From assembly GCA_964291415.2 (NCBI GenBank), contig OZ219920.1, positions 1,376,001 to 1,440,000 on the forward strand: a stretch of 64,000 nucleotides of DNA, given 5' to 3'. A program made the position numbers and the translations under genes. Shown piece by piece: positions 58,347 to 64,000 of this stretch (positions are counted from its first letter, which is position 1; each line of letters begins with the position of its first letter). Below the pieces are notes generated by a model that saw only the letters and a list, made by a program, of their open reading frames with translations, was not told where the DNA came from and did not search any database. This stretch comes from Alphaproteobacteria bacterium (GTDB lineage Bacteria > Pseudomonadota > Alphaproteobacteria > SP197).

Positions 58347-59105
58347 TCATGCGGTCTCGCCGCCGTCGATCGCGACGATCGAACCGGTCGCAAAGGTCGC
58401 GGCATCGCTGGCGAGGAACAGCACCGGTCCCGCAAGCTCGTCAGTCCTGGCAATGCGCCGTTGCGCACAATCCCTGGCAATGACCTTGTAGCCGTCCTCG
58501 ACATTACCGGCGATGCGCACGGCAAGGTTCTGCAGCATGTCGGTATCGACCCCTCCGGGGCAGACTGCGTTCACCCGGACATCCGGGGCAAGTTCCTTCG
58601 CCAGGCACTTCGTCATGTTGATGACACCGGCCTTCGAGGGGCCGTAGGCAGTGCTTCGCACGACGCCCGTCATGCCGTTGACCGATGCGATGTTGACAAT
58701 GTTGCCTTTGGTGGGGCGCAGGTGCGGAACCGCTGCCTGGATGGTGAAGAACGTGCCCTTGAGGTTGGTGTCGATGATGCGGTCCCACAGCTCTTCCGTG
58801 AAATCGTCGATCGCCGCGCCGCCGCCCCTCCCGGCGTTGTTGACGAGCACGTCGAGGCCACCGAGTCCTTCGACGGCGGCCTCCACGACAGTCCTGCAAC
58901 CCTCTACGGTGGCCACGGATCCCGGCGCGCCGACAACTCGGTCTCCGGAATCGAGTTCGCTGACGGCATCACTGGTGGTGCCCTCGGAACTGCCGTTGAG
59001 TGCCACCCGGGCGCCCGCCTCGACGAAGGCCTCGACGATGGCGCGGCCTATTCCCCTGGTCCCGCCGGTGACGAGCACCCGCCTGCCTTCATGATCGATC
59101 TTCAT
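58347..59105 (-). CDS. SDR family oxidoreductase
   Basis: TGGTRGIG, VNNAG and YGPSK. Confidence 0.93.
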   Translation of the reverse strand: MKIDHEGRRVLVTGGTRGIGRAIVEAFVEAGARVALNGSSEGTTSDAVSELDSGDRVVGAPGSVATVEGCRTVVEAAVEGLGGLDVLVNNAGRGGGAAIDDFTEELWDRIIDTNLKGTFFTIQAAVPHLRPTKGNIVNIASVNGMTGVVRSTAYGPSKAGVINMTKCLAKELAPDVRVNAVCPGGVDTDMLQNLAVRIAGNVEDGYKVIARDCAQRRIARTDELAGPVLFLASDAATFATGSIVAIDGGETA

Positions 59106-59184
59106 GGTCCTGATCCTCTTCCGTCACACGTACTCTATTGCGCCCTGCAACCGGAACAACCGCTCGTTCACGGCGAGGGCCCGG

Positions 59185-62100
59185 TCAGGCTTCCCCCAGG
59201 GACATGAGCGTGGCGTTGCCCCCGCCGGCAGTGGTGTTGATCGACACGACCCGCTCGGTTGCGAACCGGTGAAGATAGCGGGGCCCGCCGGCCTTGGGAC
59301 CGGTGCCCGAAAGACCCTCGCCGCCAAAGGGCTGGCTTCCCACCACGGCGCCGATCATGTTGCGATTCACATAGATGTTGCCGACGGGCATGCGCCTCGA
59401 AATCCACTGCGCGCGCGAATCGATGCGGGTGTGAATGCCGAGAGTCAGACCGAAACCAGTGGCAACGATGGCGTCGAGCACCTCATGGAGCCTGTCCCCG
59501 GCAAAGCGCACCACATGGATGACCGGACCGAACACTTCGTGCTCGAGGACGCCAATGTCAGGAATCTCCACAAGGGCCGGGGCCAGGAACGTGCCGTGAC
59601 GTGCGAGGTCCGGATCAAGGGGCGAGCGGAAGAGAATCCGGCCGGCGGGTTCAATGCCGGCAAGATGGGACTCGAGCCCTGCAAGCGCCTCATGGTCGAT
59701 CACGGGACCGACGTCGGTGTCGATGAGAGCGGGATCGCCGACCTTCAGTTCCGCCATGGCGCCCGACAGCATCGTGATCACCCGATCGGCAATGTCTTCC
59801 TGCAGACAGAGCACGCGCAGGGCCGAACAGCGCTGGCCGGCACTGGTGATGCCCGAGCGAATGACATCGAGGGTCACCTGTTCGGGCAGCGCCGTCGAAT
59901 CGACGATCATGGCATTCTGTCCGCCGGTCTCGGCAATCAGCGGCACGATGGCGCCGCTCCGTCCGGCAAGGGACAGGTTGATGCGCCGGGCGGTTGCGGT
60001 CGACCCGGTGAAGGCAACGCCGTCGACGCGGGGGTCACGGACCAGGGCGGCCCCGGTGGCGCCGTCACCGGGAAGCAACGACAGTACGTCTTCGGGGATA
60101 CCGGCTGCACGAAACAGGCTGACGGCGTGGGATGCCATGAGAGGCGTCTGTTCCGCCGGCTTGGCGATCACCGCGTTGCCGGCGGCAAGGGCCGCCGCCA
60201 CCTGACCACAGAAGATGGCGAGCGGAAAGTTCCAGGGAGAGATGCAGACAAAGACGCCGCGTCCGTGAAGGCTGATGCGATTGGATTCTCCGGTGGGTCC
60301 CGGAAGTTCGCTGTCGTCAGCGAACTCCGTGCGGGCGCGAACGGCGTAGTACCTGAGGAAATCGACCGCTTCCCTCACCTCCGCCAGTGCATCGCCGATC
60401 GTCTTTCCGCCCTCCAGAACGGCCGTCGCCATCAGCCGGGCACAGTCCCGTTCGAGGAGGTCGGCCGTCATCTCGAGACACGAGGCACGGCTGTCGGCGG
60501 GCGTGACGCTCCAGTCCCAGGCTGCGCCGCGGGCGGCAGAGAGTGCCGAATTGAGATCGCTTTCAGTGGCTTCCCTGATGGTGCCGACAATCCGGCGCCT
60601 GTCTGCCGGACTGGTGATCGTGCGCTCCGTGCCGCTGCACGGCCTGTCGACCGCCCAAGGCGCGTTGCCAGCCGCCCGGTTCATGTCACGGGCGAGCCGG
60701 TGAAGAACCGCCACCCTGGTGAGATCGAGCCCCCTCGCGTTCCTCCTCTCCCCGCCATAGAGGCGCGGCGGTCGCGGGATCGCCGGGTGCACCACCGTAT
60801 CGGACTGGCGCAACACCGTCGCCGGGTCCTTCACCAGTTCCTCGATGGGCAGACTGTCATCGACGATGCGGTTCACAAACGAGGTGTTGGCGCCGTTCTC
60901 AAGCAGCCGGCGGACAAGATAGGGCAGGAGATCGTCGTGACTGCCTACGGGCGAGTAGATTCGGCAGGCCACACCATCCCCCTTGGAGCCGACGAGGGGC
61001 TGGTAGACTGCCTGGCCCATGCCGTGAAGGCGCTGAAACTCGATGTCGCGCCGCCCCTCGGCCAGAACGAGAATGGTGGCGATGGTCTGGGCGTTGTGCG
61101 TGGCGAATTGCGGGAAGAAGAGATCCGGCCGGGCCAGCAGTTTCCTGGCGCAGGCGATGTAGGAAAGGTCCGTCGACGCCTTGCGCGTGAAGACGGGAAA
61201 GCTCTCGAGACCGAGTTCCTGGGCCCGCTTGATCTCGCTGTCCCAGTAGGCCCCCTTGACCAGGCGCACGGGAATCCTGCGGGAGGTGCCGGCGGCGAGC
61301 CAGGCCAGCCAGTCGATCACCGCCATGGCCCGTTTCTGGTAGGCCTGCACCGCCAGACCCAGACCGTCCCAGCCGTTGAGGGCCCGGGAAGCCACCGCCA
61401 GGACATCCAGCGAGAGCTCGAGTCGGTCGGCTTCCTCGGCATCAACCGTGAGGGCTATGCCGCGATCACAGGCGAGATGGCCCAGTTCGATCAGGCGTGG
61501 GGCAAGCTCACTCAGCACACGGGACCGCTGGGCCATCTCGTAGCGGGGATGGAGCGCCGACAGCTTGACCGAGACGCTGGCACGGCGGGTCTGGTCCTGA
61601 CTCCCTTCGGCTTCCCCGACCCGTTCGATGGCATGGCGATAGTGCGCCAGGTGGCGATCGGCATCCGCCATCGTGCAGGCCGCCTCGCCCAGCATGTCGA
61701 AGGAATGCGTGTAGCCGTGCGCCACGTCGTCTCTCGCGTTGACCAGGGCCTCATCGATGTCGCGCCCCATGACGAACTGCCGGCCGACGATGCGCATGGC
61801 GTGCAGAAAGGCCTCCCGGATGACGGGTTCGCCAAGGCGACTGACAACACGCGACACCACGCCTCGCGCGTTCCCCGTCCACTCGGGATCCAGGCTGACG
61901 AGGCGTCCGGTGAGCATCAGCCCCCACGTCGAGGCGTTGACGAACAGCGACTCGCTGTCGCCCAGGTGCCGCTGCCAGTCGGCATCGCCGATCTTGTCCT
62001 GGATGAGCATCAGCGCCGTGGAGGCGTCGGGAATCCGCAACAGGGCCTCGGCGAGGCACATGATGGCGACGCCCTCGTGACTGGAAAGATCGTACTCGTG

Positions 62101-62352
62101 CATGAAGGCGTCGATGCCGCCGGCATGGCGCCTGTTGGCCCGCACGTGCGTCACGAGATCGATGGCGCGTTTCCTGACAGCGCGTCGGTCGTCAGCCTCG
62201 AGACGGGCCTCGGCCATGAGCTCTGCGACCCGCCGGGTCTCGTCCGACGTGGCGTCGAGGCGGACGGGAGCGGTCTCCGTCTCCTCCTCATCGAACACGA
62301 ATGTGATCGCCGCTTTCCCGTCAGACAATCGTCCCGGAGCGGCGGCGCTCAC
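59185..62352 (-). CDS. putA: Bifunctional proline dehydrogenase / L-glutamate gamma-semialdehyde dehydrogenase
   Basis: LAEALLRIPD, SFDMLGE, RLVKGAY, YLVRRLLENGAN, ETGG, SAGQRCSA and GTGPKAGG. Confidence 0.97.
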   Translation of the reverse strand: MSAAAPGRLSDGKAAITFVFDEEETETAPVRLDATSDETRRVAELMAEARLEADDRRAVRKRAIDLVTHVRANRRHAGGIDAFMHEYDLSSHEGVAIMCLAEALLRIPDASTALMLIQDKIGDADWQRHLGDSESLFVNASTWGLMLTGRLVSLDPEWTGNARGVVSRVVSRLGEPVIREAFLHAMRIVGRQFVMGRDIDEALVNARDDVAHGYTHSFDMLGEAACTMADADRHLAHYRHAIERVGEAEGSQDQTRRASVSVKLSALHPRYEMAQRSRVLSELAPRLIELGHLACDRGIALTVDAEEADRLELSLDVLAVASRALNGWDGLGLAVQAYQKRAMAVIDWLAWLAAGTSRRIPVRLVKGAYWDSEIKRAQELGLESFPVFTRKASTDLSYIACARKLLARPDLFFPQFATHNAQTIATILVLAEGRRDIEFQRLHGMGQAVYQPLVGSKGDGVACRIYSPVGSHDDLLPYLVRRLLENGANTSFVNRIVDDSLPIEELVKDPATVLRQSDTVVHPAIPRPPRLYGGERRNARGLDLTRVAVLHRLARDMNRAAGNAPWAVDRPCSGTERTITSPADRRRIVGTIREATESDLNSALSAARGAAWDWSVTPADSRASCLEMTADLLERDCARLMATAVLEGGKTIGDALAEVREAVDFLRYYAVRARTEFADDSELPGPTGESNRISLHGRGVFVCISPWNFPLAIFCGQVAAALAAGNAVIAKPAEQTPLMASHAVSLFRAAGIPEDVLSLLPGDGATGAALVRDPRVDGVAFTGSTATARRINLSLAGRSGAIVPLIAETGGQNAMIVDSTALPEQVTLDVIRSGITSAGQRCSALRVLCLQEDIADRVITMLSGAMAELKVGDPALIDTDVGPVIDHEALAGLESHLAGIEPAGRILFRSPLDPDLARHGTFLAPALVEIPDIGVLEHEVFGPVIHVVRFAGDRLHEVLDAIVATGFGLTLGIHTRIDSRAQWISRRMPVGNIYVNRNMIGAVVGSQPFGGEGLSGTGPKAGGPRYLHRFATERVVSINTTAGGGNATLMSLGEA

Positions 62353-63566
62353 GGTTCCCCGCCAGCCACGACAAGGTCGGGCAGATCACCCCGCGCCATT
62401 CGCTCCGTGAGCTTTGCGGTGTGCCAGCGAACGATGGCATCGTCGCCGTCGAGAGCGACGATCTCGCCGGAATCGCAGGCCCGGCTGCCATTCTCCTTCT
62501 CGACCCGGGTGCCAACGGCGATATCCGGAAAGGCCGTTCCCATGGCCTCGGAGACCCGCAGGCTCATGGGCCGGAAGTCCTGGTCCCGGCCGTTCTCCGA
62601 AATGCCGCGGAACAGACTGCCCTGGACCCAGGTGGAAACGGGCGGTTCGTCCTTGCGGGGCAGGCACTGTGACGCTTCGGCCGCCTGCCGTCCGGCCTGA
62701 TTGAGCAACCAGTTGACCGCTTTCGACGCATGACTGGCCGCCCGGAAGATCGCCTTGTTGTCGTCTTCTAGAATCCTCAGCCAGGCGCCGATGTAATCGG
62801 CGTGGTCTTCCCTGATGGCGGGGGCGATGCCGAGCTCTGCCGAGAGGAAGGCAGAGCCGATTTCCGCGACCAGTTCCTCCTTCGCATAGGGCACCTGGTA
62901 GCTGCCCCTGAACGTGCGGTTGAGACGGCTCGCATGGCGCGTCCAGTGGACCGATTCGTGGGCCAGCGTCGTGTAGTAGGCTTCACCGTCGTGGAAGAGT
63001 TCGAAAGCCGGCATCTGGATGTAGTCGTCGCTGAGGACATAGTAGGCCTCGTCCCCGCCGTGGCGGACATCGATGCCGAGATCATGGAAAAAGCCATCGA
63101 GATCCGCGGACCGCCGGTCGCGGTTGACCGGGTGGAACTCGGCGTAGGTACGGTGCCAGCGCTGATCGAGCCCATCGACCTGCTCGACATTGAACACCGT
63201 GAAGGTCTTGTGGAAACCCTGACGACGCACGTTTTCCTCGCCGGTTTCGGGATCGCGCGTCTTCCTGGTGTACTGGTCCGCATAGACGACCGACTGGCCC
63301 TTCTCGCCCTTCCTCACGCGGCCGCCGTGGCGTTTCGCCTGGTTGAAGGTCATCCAGGTCGGTTTCATGTAGCCGGCCGCTGCCGCCGCTGCCCACAGGA
63401 CAATGACGTTGATGCCGCTGTAGGGCTGTCCGGTATCGCGCAGGGGCAGGCCCGCACCCGCGAAAGCGCCGTCAACCCCCGATTCCCAGGGCCGCATCCA
63501 CGGACGGATGCCGTCACGCAACTGGGCCATGATGGACTGGGTAATCCTTGAATGAATGTCTGCCAG
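62349..63566 (-). CDS. ardC: ArdC-family ssDNA-binding antirestriction protein with zincin metallopeptidase domain and C-terminal extension
   Basis: PWMRPW, YSGIN, WMTFNQA, VRKGEKG, VFNVEQ, AHESVHW (HExxH), YAKEELVAE and YIGAW. Start inferred at CTG 63566; the ORF-track start overlaps the upstream gene. Confidence 0.88.
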   Translation of the reverse strand: MADIHSRITQSIMAQLRDGIRPWMRPWESGVDGAFAGAGLPLRDTGQPYSGINVIVLWAAAAAAGYMKPTWMTFNQAKRHGGRVRKGEKGQSVVYADQYTRKTRDPETGEENVRRQGFHKTFTVFNVEQVDGLDQRWHRTYAEFHPVNRDRRSADLDGFFHDLGIDVRHGGDEAYYVLSDDYIQMPAFELFHDGEAYYTTLAHESVHWTRHASRLNRTFRGSYQVPYAKEELVAEIGSAFLSAELGIAPAIREDHADYIGAWLRILEDDNKAIFRAASHASKAVNWLLNQAGRQAAEASQCLPRKDEPPVSTWVQGSLFRGISENGRDQDFRPMSLRVSEAMGTAFPDIAVGTRVEKENGSRACDSGEIVALDGDDAIVRWHTAKLTERMARGDLPDLVVAGGEP

Positions 63567-63582
63567 GAATCCTCTCCCCTGA

Positions 63583-63999
63583 TTACCGGGCCGCGGCGGG
63601 CGCCCCCCGCCCGGCGAACTCGCCTCCTCCCCACAGGGAGACGTGAGGGGGATGCATGACGCTTCCATCGTAGCGGATCGCACCCTCACGGTCGACGTGA
63701 AGCATCAACGGGCCGTCAAGGTCGACGAGGTCGGCATCTTCGGCGACCAGCATCGCCGGCGCCATGGCCAGCGACGTGCTCACCATGCAGCCCACCATGA
63801 CACGAAGCCCACGCTTGCGAGCCGCCCGGCGCAGCGCCAGGGCGCCGGTCAGGCCACCTGCCTTGTCGAGCTTGATGTTCACCATGTCGTAGCGGTCCGC
63901 CAGACGGTCGACATCGTCTGCGGTGTGGCAGGACTCGTCTGCGCACAAAGGAAGCGGACACCTGTAGCCGGCCAGCGCCTCGTCTTTCCCCGCAGGCAG
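63583..63999 (-). CDS. Enolase-superfamily dipeptide epimerase / DgcA-like N-acetyl-D-Glu racemase; 5' end outside the window
   Basis: LCADES, NIKLDKAGGLT, MVGCM, DLDGPL and LWG. Confidence 0.88.
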   Translation of the reverse strand: MPAGKDEALAGYRCPLPLCADESCHTADDVDRLADRYDMVNIKLDKAGGLTGALALRRAARKRGLRVMVGCMVSTSLAMAPAMLVAEDADLVDLDGPLMLHVDREGAIRYDGSVMHPPHVSLWGGGEFAGRGAPAAAR

Positions 64000-64000
64000 C

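What the first reader, a model, noticed from the sequence alone, without database searches (positions are those of the whole stretch)
62349..63566. Chromosomal ArdC with a beta-clamp-like motif and extra C-terminal domain: candidate bacterial analogue of the SPRTN/Wss1 DNA-protein crosslink protease
Seen: a full ArdC core with intact HExxH (HESVH, 62946-62960), then about 110 extra residues containing QGSLF (62610-62624) in a linker and a small beta-rich tail (VGTRVEK..GEIVALDGDDAIVRW, SH3/Tudor-like by pattern). No conjugation genes are in the window. Known: ArdC is normally plasmid/ICE-borne and joins an ssDNA-binding domain to a zincin protease domain structurally related to Spartan; QL(S/D)LF-type peptides bind the DnaN clamp; Spartan docks on PCNA. 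Inference: a domesticated, clamp-recruited, ssDNA-activated protease acting in host DNA repair. A 5-residue motif can arise by chance.
Basis: partly seen in the sequence, partly recalled or inferred. Interest (0 to 1): 0.75.

Follow-up and report, generated by a model that had tools for sequence, protein, structure and literature searches.

The report
Chromosomal ArdC protease with clamp-binding motif
A gene normally carried by plasmids, encoding a DNA-binding protease (ArdC), has settled at a fixed chromosomal site in one group of bacteria and carries a short conserved peptide that looks like the standard handle for docking onto the DNA replication clamp, giving a testable lead to what this protease does.

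Summary

The gene is not a remnant. It lies between a dipeptide-epimerase-like gene and putA in 10 related genomes. Its dN/dS is 0.10-0.18 overall, 0-0.08 over the motif and 0.14-0.27 over the tail. The host genome showed no VirB4 and no type I R-M match.

The motif is not chance. V314, Q315 and F319 are invariant in an alignment of 38 long ArdCs. Other ArdC lineages end exactly in QLSLF, QLDLF, QLALF or QG[DA]LF. The host's own DnaE1 carries QQNLF. A co-fold with the host DnaN places residues 307-319 on DnaN (ipSAE 0.69, best control 0.00). Solved clamp-peptide complexes may explain that pass.

The SPRTN-like crosslink-repair role is untested. No SOS-box excess was found. No paper linking ArdC to the clamp turned up in my searches. 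I rate it a new variant of a known kind.

The parts
62349..63566 (-). ArdC-family gene (405 aa plus stop), probable CTG start
   Evidence: CTG start conserved in 9 of 9 close orthologues, ATG at the same place in 2 distant ones
63571..63577 (-). GGAGAGG Shine-Dalgarno-like site, 4 nt before the CTG
   Evidence: read; conserved in the close orthologues
63192..63560 (-). ArdcN ssDNA-binding domain (residues 3-125)
   Evidence: Pfam PF08401, E 1.5e-34; aligns to R388 ArdC
62730..63101 (-). MPTase-PolyVal zincin protease domain (residues 156-279)
   Evidence: Pfam PF18818, E 1.3e-46; H203, E204, H207, E230, E231 and E235 invariant in alignments A1, A2 and A4
62946..62960 (-). HESVH zinc-binding motif (residues 203-207)
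   Evidence: invariant H, E, H
62559..62669 (-). Disordered linker (residues 300-336)
   Evidence: AF2 pLDDT below 50; dN/dS up to 1.19 in the parts flanking the motif
62607..62645 (-). PPVSTWVQGSLFR (residues 308-320): candidate beta-clamp-binding motif, core QGSLF at 62610-62624
   Evidence: V314, Q315, F319 invariant and G316, L318, R320 at 90% or more in 38 long forms; dN/dS 0-0.08; residues 307-319 form the predicted interface with DnaN
62367..62534 (-). C-terminal small beta-barrel (residues 345-400), Tudor/SH3-like
59185..62352 (-). putA (proline dehydrogenase / P5C dehydrogenase); its GTG start overlaps the ArdC stop (GTGA)
   Evidence: adjacency kept in the orthologous loci
63583..64000 (-). 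3' part of an enolase-superfamily (MR_MLE, dipeptide-epimerase-like) gene that ends 17 nt before the ArdC start and continues beyond the window
   Evidence: adjacency kept in the orthologous loci

Best explanation
This is a vertically inherited chromosomal member of a distinct 'long' ArdC subfamily. It joins an ssDNA-binding domain to an intact zincin protease. A flexible linker of about 45 residues follows, holding a conserved QxxLF peptide (PPVSTWVQGSLFR), and the protein ends in a small Tudor/SH3-like barrel.

Proposed mechanism: the peptide docks into the protein-binding cleft of the DnaN sliding clamp. This concentrates the ssDNA-binding protease at clamp-loaded primer-template junctions such as forks, gaps and newly synthesised DNA. 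There it acts on a protein sitting on or beside the DNA. The tail supplies a second contact, still unknown.

Shown here: the domain architecture, intact catalytic residues, fixed locus, purifying selection, and recurrence of the motif. Inferred: clamp binding, from motif type, conservation and a co-fold. Unknown: the substrate.

The motif was inherited from ICE-borne ancestors. Clamp tethering is therefore a property of the subfamily, not of the domesticated copy alone.
For: Core:
- Pfam ArdcN plus MPTase-PolyVal.
- R388 ArdC by sequence, E 2.8e-68 over residues 3-297.

Motif:
- In the disordered stretch 300-336.
- V314, Q315 and F319 invariant in 38 long forms, although the linkers and the two tail types differ.
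- Among the 118 hits whose core end could be located, 37 of 44 with 60 or more residues after the core have Q..[LMI]F, against 0 of 74 short ones.
- Separate lineages end exactly in ...PRQLSLF or ...PRQLDLF (P0090, P0125, P0126)...PGQLALF (P0050) and ...PGQG[DA]LF (P0051, P0068, P0071, P0110).
- The host's DnaE1 has QQNLF at about residue 930.
- dN/dS over residues 308-321 is 0-0.08, with dS 0.68-2.3.

Co-fold of the own DnaN with ArdC 296-345:
- ipSAE 0.69 (runs 0.68, 0.70, 0.69); best of 3 controls 0.00.
- The mark was reached by 58 of 80 solved complexes and 2 of 110 mismatched pairs.
- The runs agree in at least 60% of their contacts, and the partner's pLDDT is at least 50.
- The interface is ArdC 307-319 against DnaN 177, 179-182, 248, 253, 279-289, 300-306, 353, 367 and 369-373, which includes the DnaN C-terminus.

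Domestication:
- Only one ArdC match in the own genome.
- Full-length copies in 10 related genomes, with at least one of the flanking genes (DUF1611, epimerase, putA) found beside each.
- Those genomes are the ones whose DnaN is at least 69% identical to the host's.
- dN/dS overall 0.10-0.18.
- GC3 0.80, like the neighbours.
Against: - No binding was measured. Clamp-peptide complexes are well represented among solved structures, so the co-fold pass may only show likeness to known clamp-binding peptides (warning).
- Position 2 of the motif is Gly, not the Leu of the textbook QL[SD]LF (consensus recalled, not from a call).
- Two long forms deviate: QESFF in G005/P0003 and QGELSL in P0016. P0016 was left out of A4.
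- Five long ArdCs with another C-terminal domain lack the motif (P0048, P0073-76).
- In an even class-wide sample, 0 of 30 readable ArdC genes carry it, so it is a minority feature of the family.
- There is no promoter-like or terminator-like signal between the epimerase gene, ArdC and putA, and no SOS-box excess. Nothing therefore links its expression to replication or damage.
- G019, the closest relative by DnaN (99%), lacks the copy. The putA query also found nothing there, so this is either a loss of the region or an assembly gap.
Confidence: 0.6

Rival explanations
1. One reading: a bacterial analogue of SPRTN/Wss1. The clamp-recruited, ssDNA-activated protease removes DNA-protein crosslinks or trapped proteins at replication forks.
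For: - The architecture runs in parallel: a zincin protease, an ssDNA-binding module, a clamp-interaction peptide in a disordered region, and a small terminal domain.
- The same paper shows the protease is not needed for antirestriction (abstract and passages), so its role is open.
- The host genome gave no type I R-M (HsdS, HsdR_N) and no VirB4 match, yet it keeps the gene under purifying selection.
Against: - There are no functional data.
- The motif is shared with ICE-borne paralogues, where a host-repair role is less obvious.
- No SOS-box excess and apparent co-transcription with metabolic genes.
- The protease is MPTase-PolyVal, not the SprT-like family.
- The distribution is narrow: one sub-clade of a genus.
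Confidence: 0.15
2. An antirestriction or anti-defence legacy. The chromosomal copy does what ICE and plasmid ArdCs do in recipient cells: it protects incoming or newly made DNA. Clamp tethering serves to place it on DNA that is being converted to duplex.
For: - R388 ArdC acts when expressed in the recipient (PMC7213743).
- PHROG 7245 'anti-restriction protein', E 1.1e-89.
- Paralogues bearing the motif lie 16-22 kb from a T4CP in 3 of 4 genomes checked, and beside a resolvase, a Toprim gene and another MPTase gene.
- The core of the chromosomal copies is interleaved with ICE copies on the tree (AU p 0.0077).
Against: - The only known target system (type I HsdRMS) was not found in the host genome with HsdS and HsdR_N models.
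- The gene is fixed at a metabolic locus with conserved synteny, and its tail differs from the ICE forms.
- It is unclear what selects for a host gene that eases the entry of foreign DNA.
Confidence: 0.2
3. The conserved VQG[S/E]LFR peptide is real but is not a clamp-binding motif. It could bind another partner or the protein's own protease domain, for example as an autoinhibitory peptide or a secretion or degradation signal.
For: - Gly at motif position 2.
- The helical-tail forms also end in a conserved G-x-S-[F/M/L]-type C-terminus, so other signals exist in this subfamily.
- The co-fold may pass from memory of solved complexes.
Against: - Terminal QLSLF, QLDLF and QLALF in other ArdC lineages match the textbook clamp motif (consensus recalled).
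- In the full-length AF2 model the motif does not dock on the core (pLDDT below 50).
- Both controls that replaced the partner, and the one that replaced DnaN, scored 0.00.
Confidence: 0.2
4. A decaying remnant of an integrated element, whose tail is read-through.
For: ArdC is normally plasmid- or ICE-borne: 3165 plasmid records hold a match.
Against: - dN/dS is 0.10-0.18 overall and 0.14-0.27 in the tail.
- The catalytic residues are intact.
- Synteny holds across genomes whose DnaN is only 69-71% identical.
- Host-like GC3.
- There is no intergenic room for element ends: 17 nt upstream and an overlap downstream.
Confidence: 0.02

Closest known systems
ArdC of IncW plasmid R388 (PDB 6I89, 6SNA)
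   Different: - R388 ArdC is 297 aa and stops where the extension begins here.
- It has no linker, no QxxLF motif and no barrel tail.
- It is plasmid-borne, whereas this gene sits at a fixed chromosomal locus.
- Short ArdCs mostly end in ...AA instead.
ICE-borne 'long' ArdC paralogues of the same genus (e.g. P0017 in G010)
   Same: Same clade (100/100). Core 60-80% identical. Same internal AVQGELFR-type motif in a variable linker.
   Different: - They have a helical C-terminal region of about 130 aa instead of the beta-barrel.
- They sit beside a T4 coupling protein, a resolvase, a Toprim gene and another MPTase gene.
SPRTN (Spartan) / Wss1 DNA-protein-crosslink proteases
   Different: - A different protease family: MPTase-PolyVal, not SprT-like.
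- The third metal ligand is Glu rather than His (paper).
- The ssDNA-binding domains are not homologous.
- A beta-clamp motif replaces the PIP box.
- No ubiquitin or p97 modules.
- No crosslink-repair activity has been shown for any ArdC.
Bacterial clamp-binding proteins with QL[SD]LF-type peptides (Pol III alpha, Pol IV, Hda, MutS; also transposition proteins such as TnsE; this list is recalled, not from a call)
   Same: A short QxxLF peptide in a disordered or terminal position. The host's DnaE1 has QQNLF. The peptide is predicted to dock on DnaN, including its C-terminal residues 369-373.
   Different: I know of no protease in this class. No paper linking ArdC to the clamp was found.
IrrE/PprI and ImmA-type regulatory metalloproteases
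   Different: They cleave a cognate repressor encoded next door. No such repressor gene lies beside this gene, and no clamp motif is known for them (recalled).

Membership tests
ArdC (ArdcN + MPTase-PolyVal) | N-terminal ArdcN (DUF1738) ssDNA-binding domain | tested here: met
   PF08401, E 1.5e-34, residues 3-125; aligned to 6SNA
ArdC (ArdcN + MPTase-PolyVal) | C-terminal zincin with HExxH and a downstream Glu ligand | tested here: met
   PF18818, E 1.3e-46; H203, E204, H207, E230 and E231 invariant
ArdC (ArdcN + MPTase-PolyVal) | Fold of R388 ArdC | tested here: met
ArdC (ArdcN + MPTase-PolyVal) | Carried on a conjugative plasmid or ICE | tested here: not met
   Metabolic neighbours; T4CP about 925 kb away; no VirB4 in the genome; nearest integrase about 493 kb away; conserved synteny
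ArdC (ArdcN + MPTase-PolyVal) | Antirestriction activity against type I R-M | not testable with these tools
   Needs conjugation or restriction assays. No HsdS or HsdR_N match in the host genome.
Beta-clamp-binding proteins | QxxLF / QL[SD]LF-type peptide | tested here: met
   QGSLF at 315-319. Relatives have QGELF, or terminal QLSLF, QLDLF, QLALF and QG[DA]LF. The consensus itself is recalled.
Beta-clamp-binding proteins | Peptide lies in a disordered or terminal segment and is conserved while its surroundings vary | tested here: met
   pLDDT below 50 for 300-336; invariant V314, Q315, F319; dN/dS 0-0.08 in the motif against 0.15-1.19 in the flanking linker parts
Beta-clamp-binding proteins | Physical binding in the hydrophobic cleft of DnaN | tested here: inconclusive
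   The co-fold supports binding but does not show it: ipSAE 0.69 against a best control of 0.00; mark reached by 58 of 80 solved complexes and 2 of 110 mismatched pairs; runs agree in at least 60% of contacts; partner pLDDT at least 50. The pass may come from memory of solved clamp-peptide complexes.
SPRTN/Wss1 (SprT-like DPC proteases) | SprT-like protease domain | tested here: not met
SPRTN/Wss1 (SprT-like DPC proteases) | DNA-dependent cleavage of DNA-protein crosslinks | not testable with these tools
   Needs biochemistry and genetics
Tudor/SH3-like small beta-barrels | Five-stranded small barrel fold | tested here: inconclusive

The most novel reading that the evidence does not exclude
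The long ArdC subfamily is the bacterial counterpart of SPRTN. It would be a sliding-clamp-recruited, ssDNA-binding zincin that clears proteins covalently or tightly stuck to DNA at primer-template junctions. ICEs would use it on incoming DNA, possibly on the relaxase that arrives covalently bound to the transferred strand. This lineage would have captured it for chromosome replication and repair. That would finally give the conserved ArdC protease domain a job; the R388 study found it dispensable for antirestriction.
Probability: 0.15. Interest if true: 0.85.

Novelty: new variant of a known kind. Interest (0 to 1): 0.62.

Why it matters
ArdC is widespread on conjugative plasmids. The R388 study found its conserved protease activity is not needed for antirestriction (PMC7213743), so the protease's purpose is open. 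A conserved clamp-binding-type peptide arises in several ArdC lineages. One copy has also been kept at a fixed chromosomal locus in a host where no type I R-M or VirB4 was found. Together these point to action at clamp-loaded DNA and give a concrete hypothesis to test: peptide-DnaN binding, an LF-to-AA mutant, and a substrate trap. If the crosslink-protease reading proved right, it would identify a bacterial counterpart of a eukaryotic genome-maintenance pathway. If the clamp link alone holds, it adds a protease to the known clamp clients and refines how conjugative elements engage the recipient's replisome.

Tried and rejected
- **Tail homologues.** A phmmer search of residues 296-405 against 1.84 billion representatives gave 4 hits. 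These were the protein's own clade (P0002), an 85-aa fragment (P0122) and two weak matches inflated by repeats (P0123; P0124, best BLASTP E 9e-04). I rejected the last two as relatives.
- **Other searches on the tail.** Pfam, NCBIfam and PHROGs found nothing on the tail. The Atlas gave only leads below 0.9, one of them a cluster with SH3_1 in 30% of members.
- **Defence systems.** PADLOC has no model matching ArdC.
- **SOS box.** The pattern GTTC-N7-GTTC (recalled) with up to 1 mismatch in L002 gave 15 matches against 15.1 expected. None is informative.
- **Promoter and terminator scan.** 1 promoter-like site against 0.8 expected, and 0 terminators.
- **Plasmids.** tblastn of P0014 found 3165 records. 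None covered 80% or more and all were below 60% identity. Two plasmid ArdCs whose matches ran furthest were read and have no motif.
- **Expression.** The only run on record as RNA (X1, a sponge metatranscriptome, share 0.06) gave short contigs. They cover parts of the ArdC core with 3-11% differences and nothing over the linker or tail. This shows neither expression nor silence of this gene.
- **Locus in the deeper sub-clade.** putA there has no epimerase or ArdC within 1.5 kb, so I could not reconstruct an empty site.
- **Class-wide census.** 34 matches came from 25 of 300 other genomes. I fetched 32, leaving out G114:C561 and G086:C52 at contig ends. 30 were readable to the C-terminus; L086 and L103 were not. 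0 of 30 carry the motif.
- **Rows left out elsewhere.** A4 omits P0002, P0003, P0005, P0006 and P0016; P0016's motif deviates. dN/dS used only the 7 orthologues of equal length, omitting L010, L012 and L013.
- **AU test caveat.** The AU test group was named by tail type, but after I had seen the quick tree.
- **Papers.** PMC7213743: abstract and passages read. PMC7824862: one passage read. All other papers were seen only as search listings. Supplements were not opened, and the supplementary tables of PMC7213743 might bear on ArdC distribution.
- **'Not in print'.** This claim rests only.
Full report
**1. The observation**

The stretch 62352-63566 (-) translates without a stop to 405 residues. 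It lies inside the ORF 62349..63689. Pfam finds ArdcN at residues 3-125 (E 1.5e-34) and the MPTase-PolyVal zincin at 156-279 (E 1.3e-46). PHROGs calls it an anti-restriction protein (phrog_7245, E 1.1e-89).

The start is probably the CTG at 63566, 4 nt after GGAGAGG. That CTG is kept in 9 of 9 close orthologues, and the two distant ones have ATG at the same position.

**2. The surroundings**

The window is part of a 1.66-Mb contig of a 4.44-Mb, 65% GC genome.

The gene starts 17 nt after the stop of an enolase-superfamily (MR_MLE) epimerase-like gene, which itself follows a DUF1611 gene. Its stop overlaps the GTG start of putA, and an SDR gene follows. A ribosomal-protein cluster lies about 17 kb away; I recognised it by eye from the translations. 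No promoter-like or terminator-like site separates the three genes.

- The genome has a single ArdC match.
- Its only T4 coupling-protein match is about 925 kb away.
- It has no VirB4 match.
- No integrase match lies within about 493 kb.
- GC3 of the gene (0.80) equals that of its neighbours.

**3. Inheritance**

Of 60 related genomes searched, full-length copies (84-96% identical) occur in 8 genomes of the genus and 64-67% copies in 2 more. One further genome has a copy cut by a contig end.

In these loci the same neighbours recur. putA was found beside the gene in 8 of the 10 full-length loci and the epimerase gene in 9 of 10, with misses at contig ends or beyond the 1.5-kb flanks.

The genomes that hold the gene are those whose DnaN is at least 69% identical to the host's. 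None of the genus members whose DnaN is 39-55% identical has it. The nearest relative by DnaN (G019, 99%) lacks it, but the putA query also found nothing there.

dN/dS against 7 orthologues of equal length:

| Region | dN/dS |
|---|---|
| Whole gene | 0.10-0.18 |
| Motif, residues 308-321 (dS 0.68-2.3) | 0-0.08 |
| Tail, residues 335-405 | 0.14-0.27 |
| Flanking linker parts | 0.15-1.19 |

The gene is therefore functional and long resident, and its tail is translated and constrained.

**4. The motif**

AF2 leaves residues 300-336 without structure (pLDDT below 50), between a confident core and a fairly confident tail.

A protein search found a set of long ArdCs of 388-494 aa. They have two different C-terminal regions: the beta tail seen here, and a helical region of about 130 residues. 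All of them keep VQG[S/E]LFR in an otherwise variable linker.

In 38 long forms, V314, Q315 and F319 are invariant, and G316, L318 and R320 are at 90% or more. P0016, whose motif reads QGELSL, was left out of that alignment. G005/P0003 reads QESFF.

Of the 118 listed hits whose core end could be located:
- 37 of 44 with 60 or more residues after the core carry Q..[LMI]F;
- 0 of 74 short ones do.

Other ArdC lineages have a proline-rich linker that ends exactly in one of these:
- ...PRQLSLF or ...PRQLDLF (P0090, P0125, P0126);
- ...PGQLALF (P0050);
- ...PGQG[DA]LF (P0051, P0068, P0071, P0110).

These are textbook beta-clamp-binding endings; the consensus is recalled, not from a call. The host's own DnaE1 has QQNLF near residue 930. 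A single Q..[LMI]F arises in 1.5% of shuffles of the C-terminal 128 residues, so the evidence lies in the recurrence, not in the single copy.

**5. The co-fold**

I folded the host DnaN (alignment of 26 rows) with ArdC residues 296-345 (alignment of 38 rows).

- ipSAE was 0.69 (runs 0.68, 0.70, 0.69); the best of 3 controls was 0.00.
- The mark was reached by 58 of 80 solved complexes and 2 of 110 mismatched pairs.
- The runs agree in at least 60% of their contacts, and the partner's pLDDT is at least 50.
- The interface is ArdC 307-319 against DnaN 177, 179-182, 248, 253, 279-289, 300-306, 353, 367 and 369-373.
- From recall, this corresponds to the cleft between domains II and III plus the C-terminal residues, where known clamp-binding peptides sit.

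Many clamp-peptide complexes are solved, so the pass shows likeness to known motifs. It does not show binding.

**6. The motif predates domestication**

On trees of the core, all 31 ArdCs with an internal motif form one clade (100/100). Short ArdCs and the forms with a terminal motif lie outside it.

Helical-tail paralogues occur in the same genus. They lie 16-22 kb from a T4 coupling protein in 3 of 4 genomes checked. In G010 the paralogue P0017 lies among a T4CP, a resolvase, a Toprim gene and another MPTase gene.

The beta-tail copies are not monophyletic on the core (AU p 0.0077; the group was named after I had seen a quick tree). P0001's core is closer to helical forms (up to 80% identity) than to the syntenic copies in G011 and G002 (64-67%). 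This suggests exchange of the core between chromosomal and ICE copies.

The motif is a minority trait. In an even sample of 300 genomes of the class, 25 had an ArdC, and 0 of 30 readable genes carried the motif. Two plasmid ArdCs read in full also lack it.

**7. The tail**

It has no detectable relatives outside the clade and no family match.

By my count from the translation, the tail is net acidic. That suggests a protein partner rather than DNA, but this is inference.

**8. Function**

Shown here:
- the architecture;
- intact catalytic residues;
- selection;
- a fixed locus;
- the recurrence of the motif.

Inferred: clamp tethering.

Unknown: the substrate.

The R388 paper reports three relevant things (PMC7213743; abstract and passages):
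- ArdC acts in the recipient against HsdRMS.
- The E229A protease mutant still works.

In the host genome I found no HsdS or HsdR_N match. A role against its own type I restriction is therefore unsupported.

No SOS-box excess was found, no defence-system model matches, and the RNA data were uninformative.

I commit to a clamp-tethered, ssDNA-binding protease acting at primer-template junctions (confidence 0.6). The SPRTN-like crosslink role (0.15) and an anti-defence role on incoming DNA (0.2) are readings of its unknown target.

**9. Novelty**

The five literature searches returned no paper linking ArdC to the clamp or to crosslink repair, beyond the structural remark in PMC7213743. Their terms were:
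- ArdC with clamp;
- ArdC with DNA-protein crosslink;
- clamp-binding motif with antirestriction;
- DUF1738;
- crosslink, sliding clamp, metalloprotease and DnaN.

I file the gene as a member of the ArdC family by core. It is a new variant in three respects:
- a clamp-motif linker;
- a lineage-specific barrel tail;
- a fixed chromosomal locus.

Noticed in passing
proteins P0034-P0121 and P0127-P0242; loci L072-L102: Ordinary short ArdCs very often end in ...E-A-A or A-A-A. 121 of 239 proteins held end in AA, as do most of the 30 class-wide genes read. The long forms have lost this ending. It looks like a conserved C-terminal signal, possibly a degradation tag, though that is only a guess.
   Followed up: partly
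alignment A1, C-termini of P0009-P0033: The helical-tail long ArdCs share a conserved C-terminal ending of the type R-x-G-x-S-[F/M/L] or G-G-x-x-L. This is a second possible short signal in the ICE-borne forms.
   Followed up: no
window 63564-63566: The ArdC gene seems to start at a CTG codon. It is conserved in 9 close orthologues and preceded by GGAGAGG. Gene callers started the homologues P0002-P0004 at an internal ATG 20 codons downstream.
   Followed up: partly
L002 9150-10325 (about 7.8 kb beyond the window's end, minus strand): A SoFic-type Fic gene: PADLOC SoFic E 1.1e-115, plus Pfam Fic, Fic_N and SoFic-like_C. This is a candidate defence gene among metabolic genes.
   Followed up: no
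own genome C1:1176741-1179123 and C4:471463-473845: Two sets of three adjacent tyrosine-recombinase matches have identical scores on two contigs. They are either repeated 'recombinase trio'-like elements or a duplicated assembly region. The genome's contamination estimate is 8.99%.
   Followed up: no
window 59104-62700 (+): A 1198-aa open frame runs antisense to putA and to part of ArdC. It did not pass the GC3/GC2 and overlap filter, and the opposite strand there holds putA, which has strong family matches. I take it as a high-GC artefact and not a gene.
   Followed up: partly
P0048, P0073-P0076, P0089: ArdCs of 583-590 aa carry a further C-terminal domain of about 250 residues after a proline-rich linker. 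Only P0089 ends with ...QGALF near its C-terminus. I did not identify the extra domain.
   Followed up: no
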